Counted from the first letter of the stretch, positions 5,001 through 64,000 are shown. The stretch is 64,000 bases of DNA from Candidatus Mycalebacterium zealandia (GCA_014075295.1 CP046180.1:698458-762457); one strand, 5' to 3'. The notes: generated from the sequence alone by a model not told the origin. Translations and numbers: made by a program.

Positions 5001-5861
5001 TTACCAGTTATTTCTGAGCTCTCTGAGCTCAGAAAAAATTTTGGCTTCATCTCGCGCCTGCGGGAACACTTCGCGCATTTTCTCCGCCACGCCTTCATTT
5101 CCGCATCTCATAAACGGATTGTAAAGTTTTTCTTCACCTATTGTTGAAACGGGGTTGCCGTTTGTCCTTACTTCACCCAGTTTTCTTTTGGCGTCTGTGT
5201 TGTCCGGTTCAATGCTGAGCGCGAACTCAAGATTTGTTTCCGCGTAGTTGTGCCCGCAGAAAACACGGATTTTGTCGTCCAGTTGCCCAAGCCGCCGGAC
5301 GGAATTGAAAAGGTCATTCACATTGCCTCCGAAACGGGTGTTTCCGCAACCCGAAAGAAACAGAGTGTCCGCCACGAAAGCATTTCCGTCAATAAGAAGC
5401 GTTATGTGGTCGGTGCAGTGTCCGGGTGTGTGCATAACCGAGAATGACAGATTGCCGAACTTGATGCCGTCTCCCTCGCCCACGGTTTGCCGTGCTCCGG
5501 TTTTTTCCGCGCCAAGTGCGTGTGAAACAATCGGCGCGCCCGTTGCCTTTGCCGCGGATTCATTTCCGGCTATGTGGTCGGGATGGGAGTGCGTGTTAAT
5601 GATGACTTCCGCGGACATTGCTTCGCTTGCGATGTGGTCAAGGATTTCCCCGGGCGACAGGGGGTCAATAACGGCGCACTTTCCCGTTTCCGAACAGCAG
5701 ACGGTGTAACTGTAGTTAGAGTCGCTTTTTGGAACAGAGAACCTTGTTATGAAAAACTGTCCGCAGTTAAAAATCTCCATAAGTCCCATAAAATCTACAC
5801 AATGCCCGGATTCAATCAAAAAACCATTTCGCTTCCGTCCGGGCGGCGCGGGCTTTGACAA
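5001..5861 (-). CDS. MBL-fold hydrolase, hydroxyacylglutathione hydrolase (glyoxalase II)-like; true start probably internal Met (~5780-5789)
   Basis: [11 protein letters not shown] metal-binding motif, [10 protein letters not shown]-terminal NPFMR as in GloB family; 8 bp from metH on the same strand. Confidence 0.75.
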
Positions 5862-7544: not shown

Positions 7545-9125
7545 TTACGATTTTTTTGCAAGCATTTCTTTTATATCTGCAGGCAATTTGATACTTGTTT
7601 TGCTTTCAAAATCCGCAACGCTTCCATATTCATTGTTGAACAAATTAACTATATCAAGACCTTTATCTTTGGCGGTTGTAAAATCTTCTTTGGCTTTACC
7701 AAACTCTTGCAAGTGTAAAAAACTTATTGCACGGTTGTAATATACAAGATAGTAATCTGGCTTAAGTTTTATCGCTTTGTTGTAGTCAGCAATGGCTTTG
7801 TCATATTCGCCTTTCTCTGCATAACAACCCCCACGATTGTAATAAGCTTCCGCATAATCCGGCTTAAGGTTTATCGCTTCGTTGCAGTCAGCAATGGCTT
7901 TGTCGTATTCGCCTTTCTTTGCATAACAACCCCCACGATTGTAATAAGCTTCCACATAATCTGGCTTAAGATTTATCACTTTGTTGCAGTCAGCAATGGC
8001 TTTGTCATATTCGCCTTTCTCTGCATAACAACCCCCACGATTGTTATAAGTGGCCGCATAATCTGGTTTAAGGTTTATCGCTTCGTTGTAGTCAGCAATG
8101 GCTTTGTCATATTCGCCTTTCTTTGCATAACAACCTCCACGATTGTAATAAGCGTCCGCATCATTTGGTTTAAGGTTTATCGCTTCGTTGTAGTCAGCAA
8201 TGGCTTTGTCATATTCGCCTTTCTTTGCATAACAACCTCCGCGATTGTAATAAGCGTCCGCATAATCTGGTTTAAGTTCTATTGTTTTGCTAAATTGATT
8301 TATAGCATCTGTGGAGTTTTTTACCGCATAGTATGCGACTCCACAGTGAAAGTGAGCTCTTGCTTTCTCCACATCATTGTTTGCGGAGTCAATCTTTTCT
8401 TTCCAGTAATTTACACTACGTTCAATATCAAATGTTTTATTCAAAGAATTTGCCACGGCATAACCGGAAAAATCAGAAAACAACGATTCTTCATCAATGC
8501 CATATGTGTATTGTAATTCTTCAATGATTTGGGTTTTACTATCTTTATCAACCAAAAACCTGTCCATTCTATTTGGTTGAATAGAAACGACACCGAAGAC
8601 AAAGATAGAACTTTGAGCCACAGTGCGATTTCCACGAGCAGAAGGTTCCCATAGCCATGGATTAGAATCACCATGATTGTTATAGAAATCCTCTATTTCC
8701 TCTTCAAGGTTTTGATTGTTTATTTCTTTTGTCTGTGAACTGGAAAGAATATGAACAGCCCCGTCTTTTTCTTTGTTTTCATTACAGGCAAACCAGAGAG
8801 CAATCAAAGGGTTCCGGGTAAAATCTATAAGTCCTGTGGCAGCCCCTTGGTGTTGCAATTTTGCTAACAGTTCTAAGTTTTTCGGATTTTCTTCATCAGC
8901 CAATCCACGCATTTTGAGCCTATCGATAAGAGATTGCAAATAGCCTATAACCAGAGGCGTTGCCAAGTCTGGTTCAATGGATTTATGGTTCAGGCGACGA
9001 AAAGCAGAGCAATTAACCTGCCATTCTGCATTAGATTGCCCTCTATAAAACAAATTGTTGTCTTTTTTAAGTTCGTACAGCCGCTCATGAAATTCTGCAA
9101 CTGTTTTTATAATGATTTTGCTCAT
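7545..9125 (-). CDS. FRG-domain protein fused to C-terminal TPR array
   Basis: N-terminal FRG-domain motifs (LFYRGQ; LQHQGAATGLIDFTRNPLIALWFA) followed by six or more near-identical 34-aa TPR units (YYNRGGCYAKKGEYDKAIADYNEAINLKPDYA); markedly AT-rich versus flanks. Confidence 0.8.
   Translation of the reverse strand: MSKIIIKTVAEFHERLYELKKDNNLFYRGQSNAEWQVNCSAFRRLNHKSIEPDLATPLVIGYLQSLIDRLKMRGLADEENPKNLELLAKLQHQGAATGLIDFTRNPLIALWFACNENKEKDGAVHILSSSQTKEINNQNLEEEIEDFYNNHGDSNPWLWEPSARGNRTVAQSSIFVFGVVSIQPNRMDRFLVDKDSKTQIIEELQYTYGIDEESLFSDFSGYAVANSLNKTFDIERSVNYWKEKIDSANNDVEKARAHFHCGVAYYAVKNSTDAINQFSKTIELKPDYADAYYNRGGCYAKKGEYDKAIADYNEAINLKPNDADAYYNRGGCYAKKGEYDKAIADYNEAINLKPDYAATYNNRGGCYAEKGEYDKAIADCNKVINLKPDYVEAYYNRGGCYAKKGEYDKAIADCNEAINLKPDYAEAYYNRGGCYAEKGEYDKAIADYNKAIKLKPDYYLVYYNRAISFLHLQEFGKAKEDFTTAKDKGLDIVNLFNNEYGSVADFESKTSIKLPADIKEMLAKKS
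7745..8300 (-). repeat. tandem near-identical ~102-bp units encoding TPR modules
   Basis: Repeated DNA blocks (e.g. ggcttaaggtttatcgcttcgttgtagtcagcaatggctttgtcatattcgcctttctttgcataacaacc) recur with few substitutions. Confidence 0.8.
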
Positions 9126-21365: not shown

Positions 21366-22223
21366 TTAAAAATCCACCTGTTTGAGTTCCCAATACGCCT
21401 TTGAATCTTTGAGGTGTTCGTTTCCCAGGAGACGGTCTATCGCTTTTTTCCCTTCCCTGTCCGTTTTGTGCGGGTTCGCGCCGTTTTTGATGAGAGCGAC
21501 CACAACGTCGGGGTTTGTGCTGTTCCACGCGGCTTTTAACAGAGGCGTTTTTCCGTCAAGCCCCGTTATGTTTGGGTCCGCTCCGTTTTGCACAAGCGCG
21601 AGGATTACTTTTTCGTTTGCGTTGTTCCACGCCGCTTTCATAAGAGCGGTTTCGCCGTTGCTGTCAACCTCATTGGCGTTGGCTCCTTTTTCTATGAGAG
21701 TCTCAAGTATTTTTTCGTTTGTGTTGTTCCACGCCGCAAACATAAGAGCGGTTTCTCCGTTCGGGGTTCGGGCTCTTACATCAGCTCCGTTCTCTATCAG
21801 AGCAAGAATAACTTCATGGTTCGGATTTACTTCCGCCGCTACCATAAGAGGGGTTTTGCCTTCATTGTTTCTTGCATTGACCTCCGCCCCGTTTTGTATA
21901 AGAGTGATAAAACTTTCCGTATCCTGCCTTGCTATGGCGGCAATTATAAGAGGCGAATTTCCCCGATCGTCTCTTCCGTTAGCGTCCGCTCCTTTTCTGA
22001 CTGCGGTTTCAATCTGTCTGTGGGTCGCGTCACGAACGAAAGTGATGTCCGTGAGGCTGTTTTTTGGAGTGTGCTGGGAAAGGAATACTACTATAAGTCC
22101 TATGACGCAGATTGCCGCAAGCGCGGCTATGAGCCACTTGCTTAAATTGTTTAGCCTTTGCCCGATTCTCCAGCGTACGGGAAAAGGCTCAAAATATTTT
22201 TCGGTCTTCTTTTTCTTCCACAC
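21366..22223 (-). CDS. membrane-anchored ankyrin-repeat protein
   Basis: 285 aa; N-terminal TM helix (LIAALAAICVIGLIVVFL), then ~6 ankyrin repeats of the dialect NxNxE(V/I)IxALIxNGADxNA(R)xxxGxTxLMxAA. Confidence 0.75.
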   Translation of the reverse strand: MWKKKKTEKYFEPFPVRWRIGQRLNNLSKWLIAALAAICVIGLIVVFLSQHTPKNSLTDITFVRDATHRQIETAVRKGADANGRDDRGNSPLIIAAIARQDTESFITLIQNGAEVNARNNEGKTPLMVAAEVNPNHEVILALIENGADVRARTPNGETALMFAAWNNTNEKILETLIEKGANANEVDSNGETALMKAAWNNANEKVILALVQNGADPNITGLDGKTPLLKAAWNSTNPDVVVALIKNGANPHKTDREGKKAIDRLLGNEHLKDSKAYWELKQVDF

Positions 22224-31813: not shown

Positions 31814-31896
31814 TGCCGAAGGGGGGACTCGAACCCCCACGCCACAAGGGCACTACCCCCTCAAGATAGCGCGTCTGCCAATTCCGCCACTTCGGC
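31814..31896 (-). tRNA. tRNA-Leu (anticodon GAG), class II with long variable arm
   Basis: Hand-folded: acceptor GCCGAAG/CTTCGGC, T-arm GGGGG-TTCGAGT-CCCCC, anticodon loop TTGAGGG, 14-nt variable arm; CCA not encoded. Confidence 0.8.
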
Positions 31897-52266: not shown

Positions 52267-52343
<77 letters not shown>

Positions 52344-61316: not shown

Positions 61317-62450
61317 ATGATGATTTCATACGAAAGAATGTCCGACCACTTGATGAGCATCATCCGCATAGACAGCGAGTCGCGTTTTGAAAAAGATGTC
61401 GCGCTTGTTCTGGAAAAGGAAATGAAGGAGATAGGCGGCGAATGTTTTTATGACGATTGCGGCGAAAAAGTCGGCGGAAACACGGGCAATCTGATTGTCA
61501 AAATTAAAGGCAATACGGACGCGCCGCCGTTTTTCCTTTGCTCGCATATGGACACGGTCGCTCCCGGAAAAGGCATAAAGCCCTCAATTAAAGACGGCAT
61601 TATGAGAAGCGACGGAACCACAATTCTCGGTAGCGACGACAAAAGCGGAGTTTCCATAATTGTTGAAGTGGTTCGTTCCCTCAAAGAGCGCGACCTGCCC
61701 CACGGCGATATTGAAATAGCGTTCATGATATGCGAGGAAGTCGGGCTTTTGGGGGCAAAATTCATTGACTGTTCGGTTTTTGAATCCTCTTACGGAATTG
61801 TTCTGGACAGCAGCACTCCCGACCGTCTTGTTCTGAAATGCCCGGCTTCAGACAGAATCAAGGTCAAAATCACCGGTGTTGAGGCGCACGCGGGGCTGTG
61901 CCCCGAAGACGGGGTCAGCGCTATAGAGATTGCGTCAAAAGCCATAGCAAAAATGAATTTGGGAAGAATAGATTCTGAAACCACCGCGAACATCGGCACA
62001 ATTTCGGGCGGAAGCGCGATAAACATTGTTCCGGGCGAGACCGAAGTTATCGGCGAGGCGAGAAGCCACAACACCGAAAAACTCGCGGTGCAAATGGACC
62101 ATATGAGGAAATGTTTTGAGAAAGCGTCAACTGAAGTTTGCGGCGATACTTCCGCCGTGCAAATTGAACAGGAACACATTTACTTTCCGATGGACGTTCC
62201 CCCTTCGTCCGAAATCGCGAAAATGGTTGAGGAAACTGCAAACAATCTCGGTCATCCGGTTGCTCTTCACACAAGCGGCGGCGGTTGCGACGCGAACTAC
62301 ATCAATGGCAAGGGAATTCAATGTGTAAATCTGGGAACGGGAATGTATGATCTTCACACTGTTGACGAGCATCTTGTTATTGAAGAGTTCAACAGGTCAG
62401 CAGACATTGTTCTCCGCACCATTATGAAAAATGCCGGACACCAAAACTAA
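61317..62450 (+). CDS. M20-family metallopeptidase (peptidase T-like)
   Basis: 377 aa; metal ligands HMDTV, GSDDKSG, EE region (ICEEVGLLGA), GGGCDAN. Confidence 0.8.
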   Translation: MMISYERMSDHLMSIIRIDSESRFEKDVALVLEKEMKEIGGECFYDDCGEKVGGNTGNLIVKIKGNTDAPPFFLCSHMDTVAPGKGIKPSIKDGIMRSDGTTILGSDDKSGVSIIVEVVRSLKERDLPHGDIEIAFMICEEVGLLGAKFIDCSVFESSYGIVLDSSTPDRLVLKCPASDRIKVKITGVEAHAGLCPEDGVSAIEIASKAIAKMNLGRIDSETTANIGTISGGSAINIVPGETEVIGEARSHNTEKLAVQMDHMRKCFEKASTEVCGDTSAVQIEQEHIYFPMDVPPSSEIAKMVEETANNLGHPVALHTSGGGCDANYINGKGIQCVNLGTGMYDLHTVDEHLVIEEFNRSADIVLRTIMKNAGHQN

Positions 62451-62829
62451 CAAACGGGCTCTCATTCTTGTTGACCACGGAAGCAACGTTGCCGAAGCGA
62501 ACGGCGTGCTTGCCGAAGTTGCCAATGAGATAAGACAGAGAGGTGCGGGTTTTGATATTGTTGAATACTGTCACATGGAGATAGCGTCTCCGACAATGGA
62601 AGAGGCGTTTCAAAAATGCGCCGAACTTGGCGCAGGCGAAGTGGTTGTTCACCCCTATTTTCTTGTTCCGGGAAGGCATTCGGGTTTTGATATTCCGGCA
62701 ATGGCAAAAGAAGCGGCGGAAAAATTTCCAAATTTGAAGCACACCGTTACCGATCCGCTCGGTCTTCACGAAAAAATTGTGGATGTTGTTCTGGAGCGGG
62801 TTTCTTCCGTGTGTTGGACGAAGGGGTAA
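62431..62829 (+). CDS. cbiX: sirohydrochlorin cobalto/ferro-chelatase, small CbiX type
   Basis: 132 aa; LILVDHGS...HPYFL.PGRH pattern of CbiX(S)/SirB. Confidence 0.75.
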   Translation: MPDTKTNKRALILVDHGSNVAEANGVLAEVANEIRQRGAGFDIVEYCHMEIASPTMEEAFQKCAELGAGEVVVHPYFLVPGRHSGFDIPAMAKEAAEKFPNLKHTVTDPLGLHEKIVDVVLERVSSVCWTKG

Positions 62830-62836
62830 ATCTCAT

Positions 62837-64000
62837 ATGGAGAAAGAGGTTATAAATAAATTGCTTGGTCCGGAGTTTATAAAAACCGCGACAGTTGAAG
62901 ATATTGAAAGAGAAATCAGAGACGGAGCAGATGTTAATGCAAAAAATGAATTTGACTGGACGGTTCTGATGAAGGCGGCAAGATTCAACACCAATCCAGA
63001 AATCATTACCACTCTTGTCAAAAACGGAGCGGATGTTAACGCGAGAGATGAAAACGGCATTACGGTTCTGATGAGAGCGGTAGCTAACAACACCAATCCG
63101 GAAATCATTACCAATCTTGTCAAAAACGGAGCGGATGTTCACGCGAGAGATGAAAACGGCATTACGGTTCTGATGAGAGCGGTAGCTAACAACACCAATC
63201 TGGAAATTATTACCGCTCTTATTGAAAACGGAGCGGATATTAACGCAAGAGATGAAAACGACGCGACGGTTCTGATGGTCGCGGCACAGTTCAACCCCAA
63301 TCCGGAAATCATTGATGCTCTTGTTCAAAACGGAGCGGATGCTAACGCAAGGGATGAAAACGGCGTGACGGTTCTGATGGTCGCGGCACAGTTCAACCCC
63401 AATCCGGAAATCATTGATGCTCTTGTTCAAAACGGAGCGGATGTTAACGCGAGAGATGAAAACGGCATGACGGCTCTTGTGTTCGCGACAATGTTCAACA
63501 CTAATCCGGAAGTCATTACCGCTCTTATTGAAAACGGAGCGGATGTTCACGCGAGAGATGAAAACGGCATTACGGTTCTGATGAGAGCGGCAATAAACAA
63601 CACCAATCTGGAAATTATTACCGCTCTTATTGAAAACGGAGCGGATGTTAACGCAAGAGATGAAAACGACGCGACGGTTCTGATGGTCGCGGCACAGTTC
63701 AACCCCAATCCGGAAATCATTGATGCTCTTGTTCAAAACGGAGCGGATGTTCACGCGAGAGATGAAAACGGCATTACGGTTCTGATGAGAGCGGTAGCTA
63801 ACAACACCAATCTGGAAATTATTACCGCTCTTATTGAAAACGGAGCGGATGTTCACGCGAGAGATGAAAACGGCATTACGGCTCTGGTGTTTGCGGCAGA
63901 GAACAATACCAATCCGGAAATCATTACCTCTCTTATTAAAAATGGAGCGAATGTTAACGCAAGATATGAAAACGGCAGAACGGCTCTGATGTTGGCGGTA
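62837..64000 (+). CDS. ankyrin-repeat protein with ten or more near-identical 33-aa repeats; 3' end beyond window
   Basis: ATG 62837; repeats DENGITVLMRAVANNTNPEIITNLVKNGADVHAR at 99-bp periodicity from ~62930 to window end. The reading frame is open to position 64000 and so is not in the ORF track. Confidence 0.8.
   Translation, partial: MEKEVINKLLGPEFIKTATVEDIEREIRDGADVNAKNEFDWTVLMKAARFNTNPEIITTLVKNGADVNARDENGITVLMRAVANNTNPEIITNLVKNGADVHARDENGITVLMRAVANNTNLEIITALIENGADINARDENDATVLMVAAQFNPNPEIIDALVQNGADANARDENGVTVLMVAAQFNPNPEIIDALVQNGADVNARDENGMTALVFATMFNTNPEVITALIENGADVHARDENGITVLMRAAINNTNLEIITALIENGADVNARDENDATVLMVAAQFNPNPEIIDALVQNGADVHARDENGITVLMRAVANNTNLEIITALIENGADVHARDENGITALVFAAENNTNPEIITSLIKNGANVNARYENGRTALMLAV
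62930..64000 (+). repeat. tandem 99-bp near-identical coding repeats (ankyrin units)
   Basis: e.g. 63062-63160 vs 63161-63259 and 63260-63358 vs 63359-63457 differ at only a few positions. Confidence 0.85.

What the first reader, a model, noticed from the sequence alone, without database searches (positions are those of the whole stretch)
62837..64000. Ankyrin-repeat gene with ten or more almost identical 99-bp units in an unusual repeat dialect, truncated by the window
Each 33-aa unit (DENG-x-T-V/A-LM-x-A-x-x-N-T-N-P-E-I-I-x-x-L-V/I-x-NGADV-N/H-AR) replaces the usual TPLH/GH-EVV ankyrin consensus with TVLM and NPEII. The units are near-identical at the DNA level. Ankyrin arrays in bacteria are often host-interaction or protein-scaffold factors. 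Extreme repeat identity implies rapid copy-number evolution and possible assembly collapse. The antisense ORFs listed in the track (62747..63856) are artefacts of this repeat.
Basis: seen in the sequence. Interest (0 to 1): 0.6.

Follow-up and report, generated by a model that had tools for sequence, protein, structure and literature searches.

The report
Ankyrin-repeat gene of a sponge symbiont
This is a real but ordinary ankyrin-repeat gene, made of 34-residue repeats and cut off by the window edge, that a bacterial symbiont of a marine sponge gained together with a smaller sister gene; it most likely serves as a protein-binding scaffold, possibly aimed at the host.

Summary
The repeat array is real. 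It has a period of 102 bp (34 aa), not 99 bp (33 aa). The window holds 10 full units plus part of an 11th. Mean unit identity is 82%, and only some pairs are 95-100% identical.

The + strand ORF starts at ATG 62837. It is a clear ankyrin protein: Pfam Ank_2 gives E 6e-87, and an AlphaFold model (pLDDT 86) superposes on ankyrin-B repeats with TM 0.85.

Exact matches of the neighbouring proteins place the window in Candidatus Mycalebacterium zealandia, a Dadabacteria symbiont of the sponge Mycale hentscheli.

A sibling assembly shows the gene running in frame for 408 bp past the window. The full gene is 1572 bp (523 aa): an N-cap, 13 units and a C-cap. It is not a pseudogene. A 183-aa paralogue follows it.

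Four related genomes keep the flanking gene order but have no ankyrin genes here, so the pair is a lineage-specific insertion of about 2.25 kb.

The "dialect" (TxLM, NxNPEII, one extra loop residue) is real. It also occurs in at least 30 of the top 120 database hits, so it is not unusual.

Three short-read assemblies break or leave a gap in the array. The antisense ORF has no family support.

Verdict: a new member of a known kind (eukaryotic-like ankyrin proteins of sponge symbionts). Interest is low.

The parts
62837..64000 (+). ank1: the 5' 1164 nt of a 1572-nt (523-aa) ankyrin-repeat gene. The remaining 408 nt lie beyond the window (virtual end about 64408).
   Evidence: ORF and translation. 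Pfam Ank_2 E 6e-87, Ank E 5e-63. The full gene was recovered from L005 2807..4378, with 2 SNPs relative to the window. AF2 pLDDT 85.8; Foldseek 5y4f_A TM 0.85.
62837..62920 (+). N-terminal cap (aa 1-28, MEKEVINKLLGPEFIKTATVEDIEREIR), with no signal-peptide-like hydrophobic segment.
   Evidence: The model shows three short helices at H2-9, H12-17 and H20-28. The maximum Kyte-Doolittle 19-residue mean in the first 60 aa is 0.47, against 3.0 for the membrane-anchored paralogue ank3. The cap is collinear with the N-terminus of ank2 (59% identity).
62921..64000 (+). Array of 34-aa (102-bp) ankyrin units 1-10 plus the first 20 codons of unit 11. There are two main unit types: A (units 2, 3, 7, 9) and B (units 4, 5, 8).
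   Evidence: TRF period 102, 10.2 copies, 84% matches. Unit register and identity matrix. One extra residue per unit relative to DARPin/ankyrin-1 in the helix1-helix2 loop.
62820..62826 (+). Shine-Dalgarno-like GAAGGGG, 10 nt upstream of the ATG, inside the 3' end of cbiX.
   Evidence: Read from the sequence. This is inference only. The promoter/terminator scan gave no more sites than in shuffled sequence, which fits co-transcription with cbiX.
62431..62829 (+). cbiX-like gene directly upstream (stop 7 nt before the ank1 ATG). Homology to the ankyrin-less sister genome ends at about window 62804, which marks the left edge of the insertion.
   Evidence: Pfam CbiX E 1e-26. Exact match to QMU56273.1 of Ca. 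Mycalebacterium zealandia. blastn of L008 against L001 stops at L001 10374.
62747..63856 (-). Antisense 369-aa ORF: a by-product of the repeat, not a gene.
   Evidence: No Pfam families at E<=1e-4 and only a noise-level NCBIfam hit (20.6 bits against a cut-off of 267). It lies opposite a frame with an E 6e-87 family match and overlaps the cbiX 3' end.
21366..22223 (-). ank3: a third ankyrin gene of the same 34-aa type in the window. It is 285 aa, has an N-terminal transmembrane or signal-anchor segment, and has the same C-cap (…KDSKAYWELK).
   Evidence: ORF. Pfam Ank_2 E 4e-41. Hydrophobic maximum 3.0 at residue 31. 45-50% identity to ank1.

Best explanation
The feature is the first three quarters of ank1, a 523-aa protein of Candidatus Mycalebacterium zealandia (class Dadabacteria), a symbiont of the sponge Mycale hentscheli.

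The protein consists only of ankyrin repeats: an N-terminal cap, 13 units of 34 residues, a C-terminal capping unit and a 19-residue tail. Each unit is a canonical ankyrin helix-loop-helix plus beta-hairpin, with one extra residue in the inter-helix loop (N-x-N-P-E in place of G-H-x-E). The units stack into a curved solenoid.

The gene and a shorter tandem paralogue (ank2, 183 aa) form an island of about 2.25 kb. The island sits between two convergent housekeeping genes and is present only in this lineage. The array grew by recent internal duplication of units or two-unit blocks.

The most likely role is a catalytically inert protein-binding scaffold of the 'eukaryotic-like protein' class that is enriched in sponge symbionts. 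There it is thought to bind host proteins and blunt phagocytic digestion.

Shown here: identity as an ankyrin solenoid, gene completeness, organism, insertion status and repeat architecture. Inferred: the binding function, the host as target, and any export.
For: Ankyrin identity:
- Pfam Ank_2 E 6e-87 for the window part and 6e-100 for the full gene.
- phmmer against the PDB is best to DARPins and ankyrin-1/2, with one gap per repeat.
- The AF2 model has pLDDT 85.8 and a 34-residue helix-helix-hairpin periodicity.
- Foldseek gives AnkB R13-24 at TM 0.85 and rmsd 2.9 A, and AnkR D34 at TM 0.83.

Organism:
- The neighbouring CbiX and M20 proteins are exact matches to QMU56273.1 and QMU56272.1 of Ca. 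M. zealandia.
- Taxonomy was checked.
- The JAAHTG/JAAHTH records are the M. hentscheli metagenome of PMC7196800.

Completeness:
- L005 carries a 1572-bp ORF that differs from the window at 2 of 3970 aligned bases.

Insertion:
- L008, L011, L009 and L010 (M20 identity 87, 86, 77 and 74%) keep the hflX/M20/cbiX and Metallophos/MiaB/MnmA gene order but have no ankyrin genes.
- GC is 44.5% (ank1) and 41.3% (ank2) against 48.6% for the window.

Internal duplication:
- Units 3=9 (100%), 4/8 (99%), 3/7 (96%), 4/5 (95%).

Variable positions:
- The most variable unit positions (13, 18, 21, 22 in my register; canonical positions 5, 10, 13, 14) include three of the positions randomised in DARPin binding surfaces (the DARPin positions are from my own knowledge).

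Class context:
- Ankyrin and TPR proteins were reported as the most abundant 'symbiosis factors' in the M. hentscheli bins (PMC7196800).
- Sponge-symbiont ankyrin proteins altered amoebal phagocytosis when expressed heterologously (Nguyen et al. 2014, as cited in PMC6372511).
Against: - ank1 and ank2 have no N-terminal signal-like hydrophobic segment, so there is no evidence the proteins ever reach the host.
- No secretion-system genes were seen near the locus, and the rest of the genome could not be examined.
- No close orthologue exists in the databases (best 39-51% identity), so no function can be transferred.
- ank1 appears to be co-transcribed with housekeeping genes (7-nt gap after cbiX). 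That is equally compatible with an intracellular bacterial role.
- The part of the gene beyond 64000 is taken from sibling assemblies, not from the window's own record.
Confidence: 0.6

Rival explanations
1. ank1 and ank2 are ankyrin scaffolds that act inside the bacterium, for example as adaptors or chaperones for a bacterial partner. They would have no direct role in host interaction.
For: There is no signal-peptide-like segment in ank1 or ank2. ank1 sits tightly behind cbiX, with no promoter signal above chance. The same 34-aa type occurs in many non-symbiont metagenome proteins from diverse phyla.
Against: Four related genomes lack the genes at this otherwise conserved locus, so any role is dispensable and lineage-specific. 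The carrier is a sponge symbiont from a microbiome in which ankyrin proteins were singled out as abundant symbiosis factors.
Confidence: 0.3
2. The array in the window is an assembly artefact (collapsed, expanded or chimeric). On this reading the unit order and copy number are not biological.
For: JAAHTH (L001) has a 10-N gap and a hybrid unit inside the array. JAAHTG (L002/L006) and a Logan assembly (L007) end 231 and 198 bp into the gene. Exact internal repeats reach 116 bp. The two SNPs between assemblies fall in the array, and the one at gene offset 201 (N/H) is at a unit position that also varies between units.
Against: WLWG01 (L005) gives the same 1572-bp in-frame gene, and up to five further contigs were grouped with it. 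The exact repeats are shorter than typical read lengths. The reading frame and both caps are intact.
Confidence: 0.08
3. ank1 is part of an anti-phage defence system (PADLOC candidate PDC-M72, or an MzaA-like protein).
For: PADLOC PDC-M72A E 1.9e-89. NCBIfam MzaA E 2e-54.
Against: The matches cover only the ankyrin portion of those profiles (PDC-M72A positions 211-371 of 392; MzaA 18-77 of 726). The MzaA score of 185 bits is far below its 800-bit cut-off. No partner genes are present: the neighbours are ank2 and housekeeping genes.
Confidence: 0.03

Closest known systems
Ankyrin-repeat 'eukaryotic-like proteins' of sponge symbionts (ARPs; Nguyen, Liu & Thomas 2014, cited in PMC6372511)
   Same: Both are encoded by a sponge-associated bacterium and consist of ankyrin repeats only. 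They belong to a gene class reported as abundant in the M. hentscheli bins (PMC7196800) and occur together with TPR proteins.
   Different: There is no sequence orthology to any characterised ARP. No signal peptide was seen on ank1 or ank2. The carrier is a Dadabacteria with a chromosome of about 1.16 Mb. No function has been tested.
Canonical 33-residue ankyrin solenoids (ankyrin-R/B membrane-binding domain, DARPins)
   Same: The fold and superhelical stacking match (TM 0.83-0.85 to 5y4f, 4rlv and 1n11). The conserved T, L, A and G-A-D-V-N-A hairpin residues are present, and 29-40% of residues are identical.
   Different: The unit has 34 residues, with one extra residue in the helix1-helix2 loop. 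TPLH becomes T(V/A)LM and GH-x-E becomes N-x-N-P-E. The canonical variable positions 2 and 3 are fixed here (E-N).
34-residue bacterial ankyrin proteins in metagenomes (e.g. P0001, P0010, P0013, P0033)
   Same: They share the unit length and motif (G-x-T-x-L-M-x-A-A-x-x-N-x-N-P-E/D-V-I-x-x-L-I-x-x-G-A-D-V-N-A). They also share the C-cap G-(K/R)-x-A-x-D-Y-A-x-x-N-x-K-L-K-x-T-x-A-Y.
   Different: Overall identity is only 39-51%. Many carry extra domains or several arrays. None shares the ank1/ank2 N-terminal cap closely.
Legionella/Coxiella Dot/Icm ankyrin effectors (AnkY, AnkH, AnkG, AnkX; NCBIfam NF0430xx)
   Same: They are ankyrin-containing bacterial proteins aimed at eukaryotic hosts, which makes them a plausible functional analogy.
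   Different: Scores are 48-158 bits against cut-offs of 450-1400, and only the repeat region matches. ank1 has no effector domain, and no T4SS was seen.
Wolbachia / phage WO ankyrin genes
   Same: They are lineage-specific ankyrin genes in a symbiont whose repeat arrays vary between strains.
   Different: Identity is only 32-36%, at the generic ankyrin level. There is no phage context at this locus.

Membership tests
Ankyrin repeat superfamily (Pfam Ank, Ank_2, Ank_3, Ank_4, Ank_5) | Sequence match to the ankyrin profile HMMs above the curated gathering score | tested here: met
   Ank_2 286.8 bits (cut-off 27.3), Ank 205.9 bits (cut-off 21.1), with 10 repeat stretches in the window part. The full gene scores 328 bits.
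Ankyrin repeat superfamily (Pfam Ank, Ank_2, Ank_3, Ank_4, Ank_5) | Repeating helix-loop-helix plus beta-hairpin units of about 33 residues stacked into a solenoid | tested here: met
   The AF2 model (pLDDT 85.8) shows two helices plus hairpin bridges in each unit. TM is 0.85 and rmsd 2.9 A to AnkB R13-24. The unit length is 34 residues, one more than the consensus, with the extra residue in the inter-helix loop.
Ankyrin repeat superfamily (Pfam Ank, Ank_2, Ank_3, Ank_4, Ank_5) | Consensus signature residues (T-P-L-H at the start of helix 1, A-A, L-L, G-A-D-x-N hairpin). This is a consensus, not a requirement. | tested here: met
   T, L, A, I/L and G-A-D-V-N/H-A are invariant or nearly invariant in the 13 units. 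P is replaced by V/A and H by M/V.
Sponge-symbiont ankyrin 'eukaryotic-like proteins' (functional class) | Encoded by a sponge-associated symbiont | tested here: met
   The neighbouring proteins are exact matches to Ca. Mycalebacterium zealandia entries. The contigs come from the Mycale hentscheli metagenome.
Sponge-symbiont ankyrin 'eukaryotic-like proteins' (functional class) | Protein reaches the host (signal peptide or secretion-system substrate) | tested here: inconclusive
   ank1 and ank2 have no N-terminal hydrophobic segment, while ank3 has one. Dedicated predictors and the rest of the genome were not available.
Sponge-symbiont ankyrin 'eukaryotic-like proteins' (functional class) | Alters phagocytosis or intracellular survival when expressed | not testable with these tools
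   This needs the amoeba or sponge-cell assay of Nguyen et al. 2014 (cited in PMC6372511).
Dot/Icm T4SS ankyrin effectors (NCBIfam AnkY/AnkH/AnkG/AnkX equivalogs) | Whole-protein score above the curated equivalog cut-off | tested here: not met
   Best scores are 157.9 against 600 (AnkY), 151.1 against 600 (AnkH) and 124.2 against 500 (AnkG).
PADLOC candidate defence system PDC-M72 (component A) | Full-length match to the component profile, and presence of the partner gene(s) | tested here: not met
   Only profile positions 211-371 of 392 are matched, and matched repeatedly. The neighbours are cbiX, ank2 and a metallophosphoesterase.

The most novel reading that the evidence does not exclude
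The ank1-ank2 island could be a recent, host-specific acquisition that helps this Dadabacteria lineage live in Mycale hentscheli. Its array would evolve by unit duplication and conversion to retune a host-binding surface. The 34-residue N-x-N-P-E ankyrin form would then be a distinct, mainly bacterial repeat subclass with its own cap architecture that has not been formally described.
Probability: 0.2. Interest if true: 0.4.

Novelty: new member of a known kind. Interest (0 to 1): 0.18.

Why it matters
The finding adds a cleanly delimited example to a known pattern: sponge symbionts carry lineage-specific ankyrin and TPR genes. Here the insertion is bracketed by gene order conserved in four relatives, so the gain is unusually clear for an uncultured Dadabacteria. 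That makes ank1 and ank2 reasonable candidates for host-interaction assays.

There is also a practical point. The locus is an assembly hazard, since three of the assemblies examined break or leave a gap in it. Ankyrin gene counts and lengths in short-read MAGs of such symbionts are therefore likely to be underestimated. Nothing here challenges current understanding.

Tried and rejected
- An exact-pattern scan of genome contigs with the ank1 5' end found 0 matches. An HflX-based scan found only a 42%-identical Halanaerobiaceae hit.
- An exact-pattern scan of metagenome contigs found 0 matches.
- Exact look-ups of the reconstructed ank1, the L005 ank1, ank2 (two alternative starts) and ank3 all returned 'not in the collection'. 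The public annotation names of these genes could not be retrieved.
- Homologue searches with ank1 and ank2 gave thousands of ankyrin hits but none above 51% identity. No orthologue or donor lineage could be named.
- The phage collection returned only Wolbachia WO ankyrins at 32-36% identity. A phage origin was rejected.
- The promoter/terminator scan gave no more sites than in shuffled sequence.
- NCBIfam and PADLOC hits cover the repeat region only and fall below cut-offs. Effector and defence memberships were rejected.
- Literature searches for Mycalebacterium and Nemesobacterales found nothing on these genes.
- The pN/pS ratio between units (0.79 over all pairs) is too crude, and is confounded by conversion, so it cannot support a claim of selection.

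Full report
**Observation.** The region 62837..64000 contains a strong tandem array. TRF reports 62960..63998 with period 102 bp, 10.2 copies, 84% matches, no indels and score 1243, and also a 306-bp higher-order period. The + strand frame opening at ATG 62837 is uninterrupted to the window end.

Cut in register, the protein has a 28-residue N-terminal segment, ten complete 34-residue units and 20 residues of an eleventh. The written consensus omitted one N of the ...A-x-x-N-N-T-N-P-E... stretch.

Unit similarity is uneven. Mean pairwise DNA identity of the ten in-window units is 82%. Units 3 and 9 are identical, 4/8 are 99%, 3/7 are 96% and 4/5 are 95%. The longest exact internal repeats are 116 bp (offset of six units) and 102 bp (offset of four units). 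This pattern indicates recent duplication or conversion of single units and two-unit blocks. It is not a uniformly near-identical array.

**What it is.** The translated window part matches Pfam Ank_2 (E 6e-87, 286.8 bits), Ank_4, Ank, Ank_5 and Ank_3, all far above their gathering scores.

A sequence search of the PDB is led by DARPins and ankyrin-1/2. The alignments show one gap per repeat on the PDB side, in the loop between the two helices. Each unit is therefore a canonical ankyrin unit plus one residue.

A single-sequence AlphaFold model has mean pLDDT 85.8 and pTM 0.75, with a helix-helix-hairpin pattern repeating every 34 residues. Foldseek superposes it on AnkB repeats 13-24 (5y4f_A, TM 0.85, rmsd 2.9 A), on the 24-repeat AnkB domain (4rlv, TM 0.85) and on AnkR D34 (1n11, TM 0.83). 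Membership in the ankyrin superfamily is established.

The antisense ORF 62747..63856 has no Pfam match and only a noise-level NCBIfam hit. It exists because the repeat happens to lack stops in that frame.

**Where it comes from.** The two upstream proteins (CbiX-like, 62431..62829; M20 peptidase, 61317..62450) are exact matches to QMU56273.1 and QMU56272.1 of Candidatus Mycalebacterium zealandia. They occur on contigs up to 1,162,647 bp long. NCBI taxonomy places this species in Thermodesulfobacteriota, class Ca. Dadabacteria.

The same locus occurs in records JAAHTG and JAAHTH. These are the Mycale hentscheli sponge metagenome of Rust et al. 2020 (PMC7196800). That paper lists ankyrin (COG0666), TPR and WD40 proteins as the most abundant "symbiosis factors" in its bins.

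**Completing the gene.** L005 (GCA_012263365.1, WLWG01000001.1, an 814-kb contig) carries the same locus with a called 523-aa gene directly after cbiX. Over the 3970 bases that overlap the window it differs at two positions, both inside the array. The last 400 bases of the window also match L001 exactly.

Joining the window to the downstream sequence gives a 1572-bp ORF: an N-cap, 13 units of 34 residues, a divergent C-terminal capping unit (NGANPRLVNDEGETAFDYAKENKKLKNTKAYWKL) and a 19-residue tail. So there is no stop or frameshift just beyond the window. The part beyond 64000 rests on sibling assemblies and not on the window's own record.

Seventy-five bases downstream of the ank1 stop lies the called start of a second ankyrin gene, ank2. 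With the upstream ATG that aligns with the ank1 start it is 183 aa. It is 59% identical and collinear with ank1 from the N-terminus. ank1 and ank2 are tandem paralogues.

**Assembly behaviour.**
- JAAHTH (L001) has a 10-N gap in the array, preceded by a hybrid unit. It lacks about 455 bp of the array.
- JAAHTG (L002/L006) ends 231 bp into the gene.
- A Logan assembly of SRR10090328 (L007) ends 198 bp into the gene.

Against this, the window and L005 agree on array length, and up to five further contigs were grouped with L005. One of the two SNPs (gene offset 201, N/H in unit 2) is shared in a pattern: A in the window and JAAHTH, C in JAAHTG and WLWG01. That looks like a real polymorphism. No copy-number difference in ank1 was observed.

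**A lineage-specific insertion.** I looked up the M20 or CbiX orthologues of four relatives: L008 (Ca. Mycalebacterium sp., 87% M20 identity, about 89% DNA identity in the flanks), L011 (86%), L009 (77%, a 1.40-Mb contig) and L010 (74%, a 1.48-Mb contig).

All four keep the surrounding order: AMP-ligase, luciferase-like gene, M20 and cbiX on one side (hflX precedes M20 in all but L010), then the convergent MiaB-like and mnmA genes (preceded by the Metallophos gene in all but L010), a racemase and (not reached in L011) ETF on the other. In all four, cbiX abuts the convergent gene directly, and no ankyrin motif occurs anywhere in these loci.

blastn places the break at L001 10374 (window about 62804) on the left and at the Metallophos stop on the right. 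In L008 only 23 bp lie in between. By parsimony the ank1-ank2 pair (about 2.25 kb) was gained in the M. zealandia lineage.

Its GC content is 44.5% (ank1) and 41.3% (ank2), and GC3 is 0.44 and 0.36. The window is 48.6% GC and the flanking genes have GC3 of 0.47-0.55. This is compatible with foreign origin but could also reflect amino-acid composition. No donor was identified. The best outside hits are 39-51% identical, and the phage collection holds only generic Wolbachia WO ankyrins.

**The "dialect".** Of the top 120 hits to ank1, 30 carry three or more 34-residue units matching a strict pattern for this form. Inspected examples (P0001, P0004, P0010, P0013, P0033) show the same unit, and four of the five (all but P0001) show the same C-cap G-(K/R)-x-A-x-D-Y-A-x-x-N-x-K-L-K-x-T-x-A-Y. 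A third gene of the same type lies in this window (21366..22223, minus strand).

**How it most likely works.** The protein has no domain other than ankyrin repeats, so it is a binding scaffold and not an enzyme.

The most variable unit positions are 13, 18, 21 and 22 in my register, which correspond to canonical ankyrin positions 5, 10, 13 and 14. Positions 5, 13 and 14 belong to the concave face that is randomised in DARPin libraries (my own knowledge). This fits a target-binding groove whose specificity differs from unit to unit.

Several points make a host-directed "eukaryotic-like protein" role the leading hypothesis. The carrier is a sponge symbiont. The genes are accessory. Sponge-symbiont ankyrin proteins have been shown to alter amoebal phagocytosis (Nguyen et al. 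2014, as cited in PMC6372511). I put this at roughly 0.4-0.5.

The main weakness is export. ank1 and ank2 have no signal-like N-terminus, the gene appears to be co-transcribed with cbiX (7-nt gap, SD-like GAAGGGG, no promoter signal above chance), and I could not inspect the rest of the genome for secretion systems. An intracellular scaffold role remains a serious rival, at about 0.3.

Defence-system and Legionella-effector labels from PADLOC and NCBIfam reflect the repeat region only and fail their cut-offs or lack partner genes.

**Verdict.** This is a genuine, intact, lineage-specific ankyrin-repeat gene of a known class, in a public genome. Novelty: new member of a known kind. Interest: low.

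Noticed in passing
window 7545..9125 (-), array 7753..8276: This is a 526-aa protein (QMU56225.1) with an N-terminal FRG domain (PF08867, E 5.5e-17) and a TPR array encoded by another 102-bp tandem repeat (5.1 copies, 92% matches). The N-terminal 223 residues match PADLOC single-gene defence candidate PDC-S15 (E 2.8e-32). In the JAAHTG assembly the protein (P0244, 492 aa) is exactly one 34-aa unit shorter, which is either a real copy-number difference or an assembly collapse.
   Followed up: partly
window 21366..22223 (-): A third ankyrin gene (ank3) of 285 aa with a GTG start. It has the same 34-aa repeat type and the same C-cap as ank1, but it carries an N-terminal transmembrane or signal-anchor segment. 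It is the only one of the three with an obvious route to the cell envelope.
   Followed up: partly
L005 4424..4975 (just beyond the window end; virtual window about 64454..65005): ank2 is a 183-aa tandem paralogue of ank1 (59% identity, collinear from the N-terminus). The gene caller used an internal ATG (173 aa), but the upstream ATG aligns with the ank1 start.
   Followed up: partly
window 63038 (gene offset 201) and 63603 (gene offset 766): These are the only two differences between the window and WLWG01 over 3970 bp. Both are non-synonymous and lie inside the array. At 63038 the A allele (N) is shared with JAAHTH and the C allele (H) with JAAHTG and WLWG01. This suggests a real polymorphism or inter-unit conversion.
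   Followed up: partly
L008 5384..5406; L011 about 5623..5631; L009 6307..6477; L010 6487..6498: In four related Dadabacteria genomes cbiX directly abuts, or even overlaps, the convergent downstream gene. This defines an empty site for the ankyrin island. L010 also lacks the Metallophos gene and hflX at this position.
   Followed up: yes
window 31814..31896 (-) and 52267..52343 (-): tRNA-Leu(GAG) and tRNA-Met(CAT) are the only Rfam or ARAGORN hits in the 64-kb window. Neither is near the ankyrin island, so there is no tRNA-linked integration signature.
   Followed up: no
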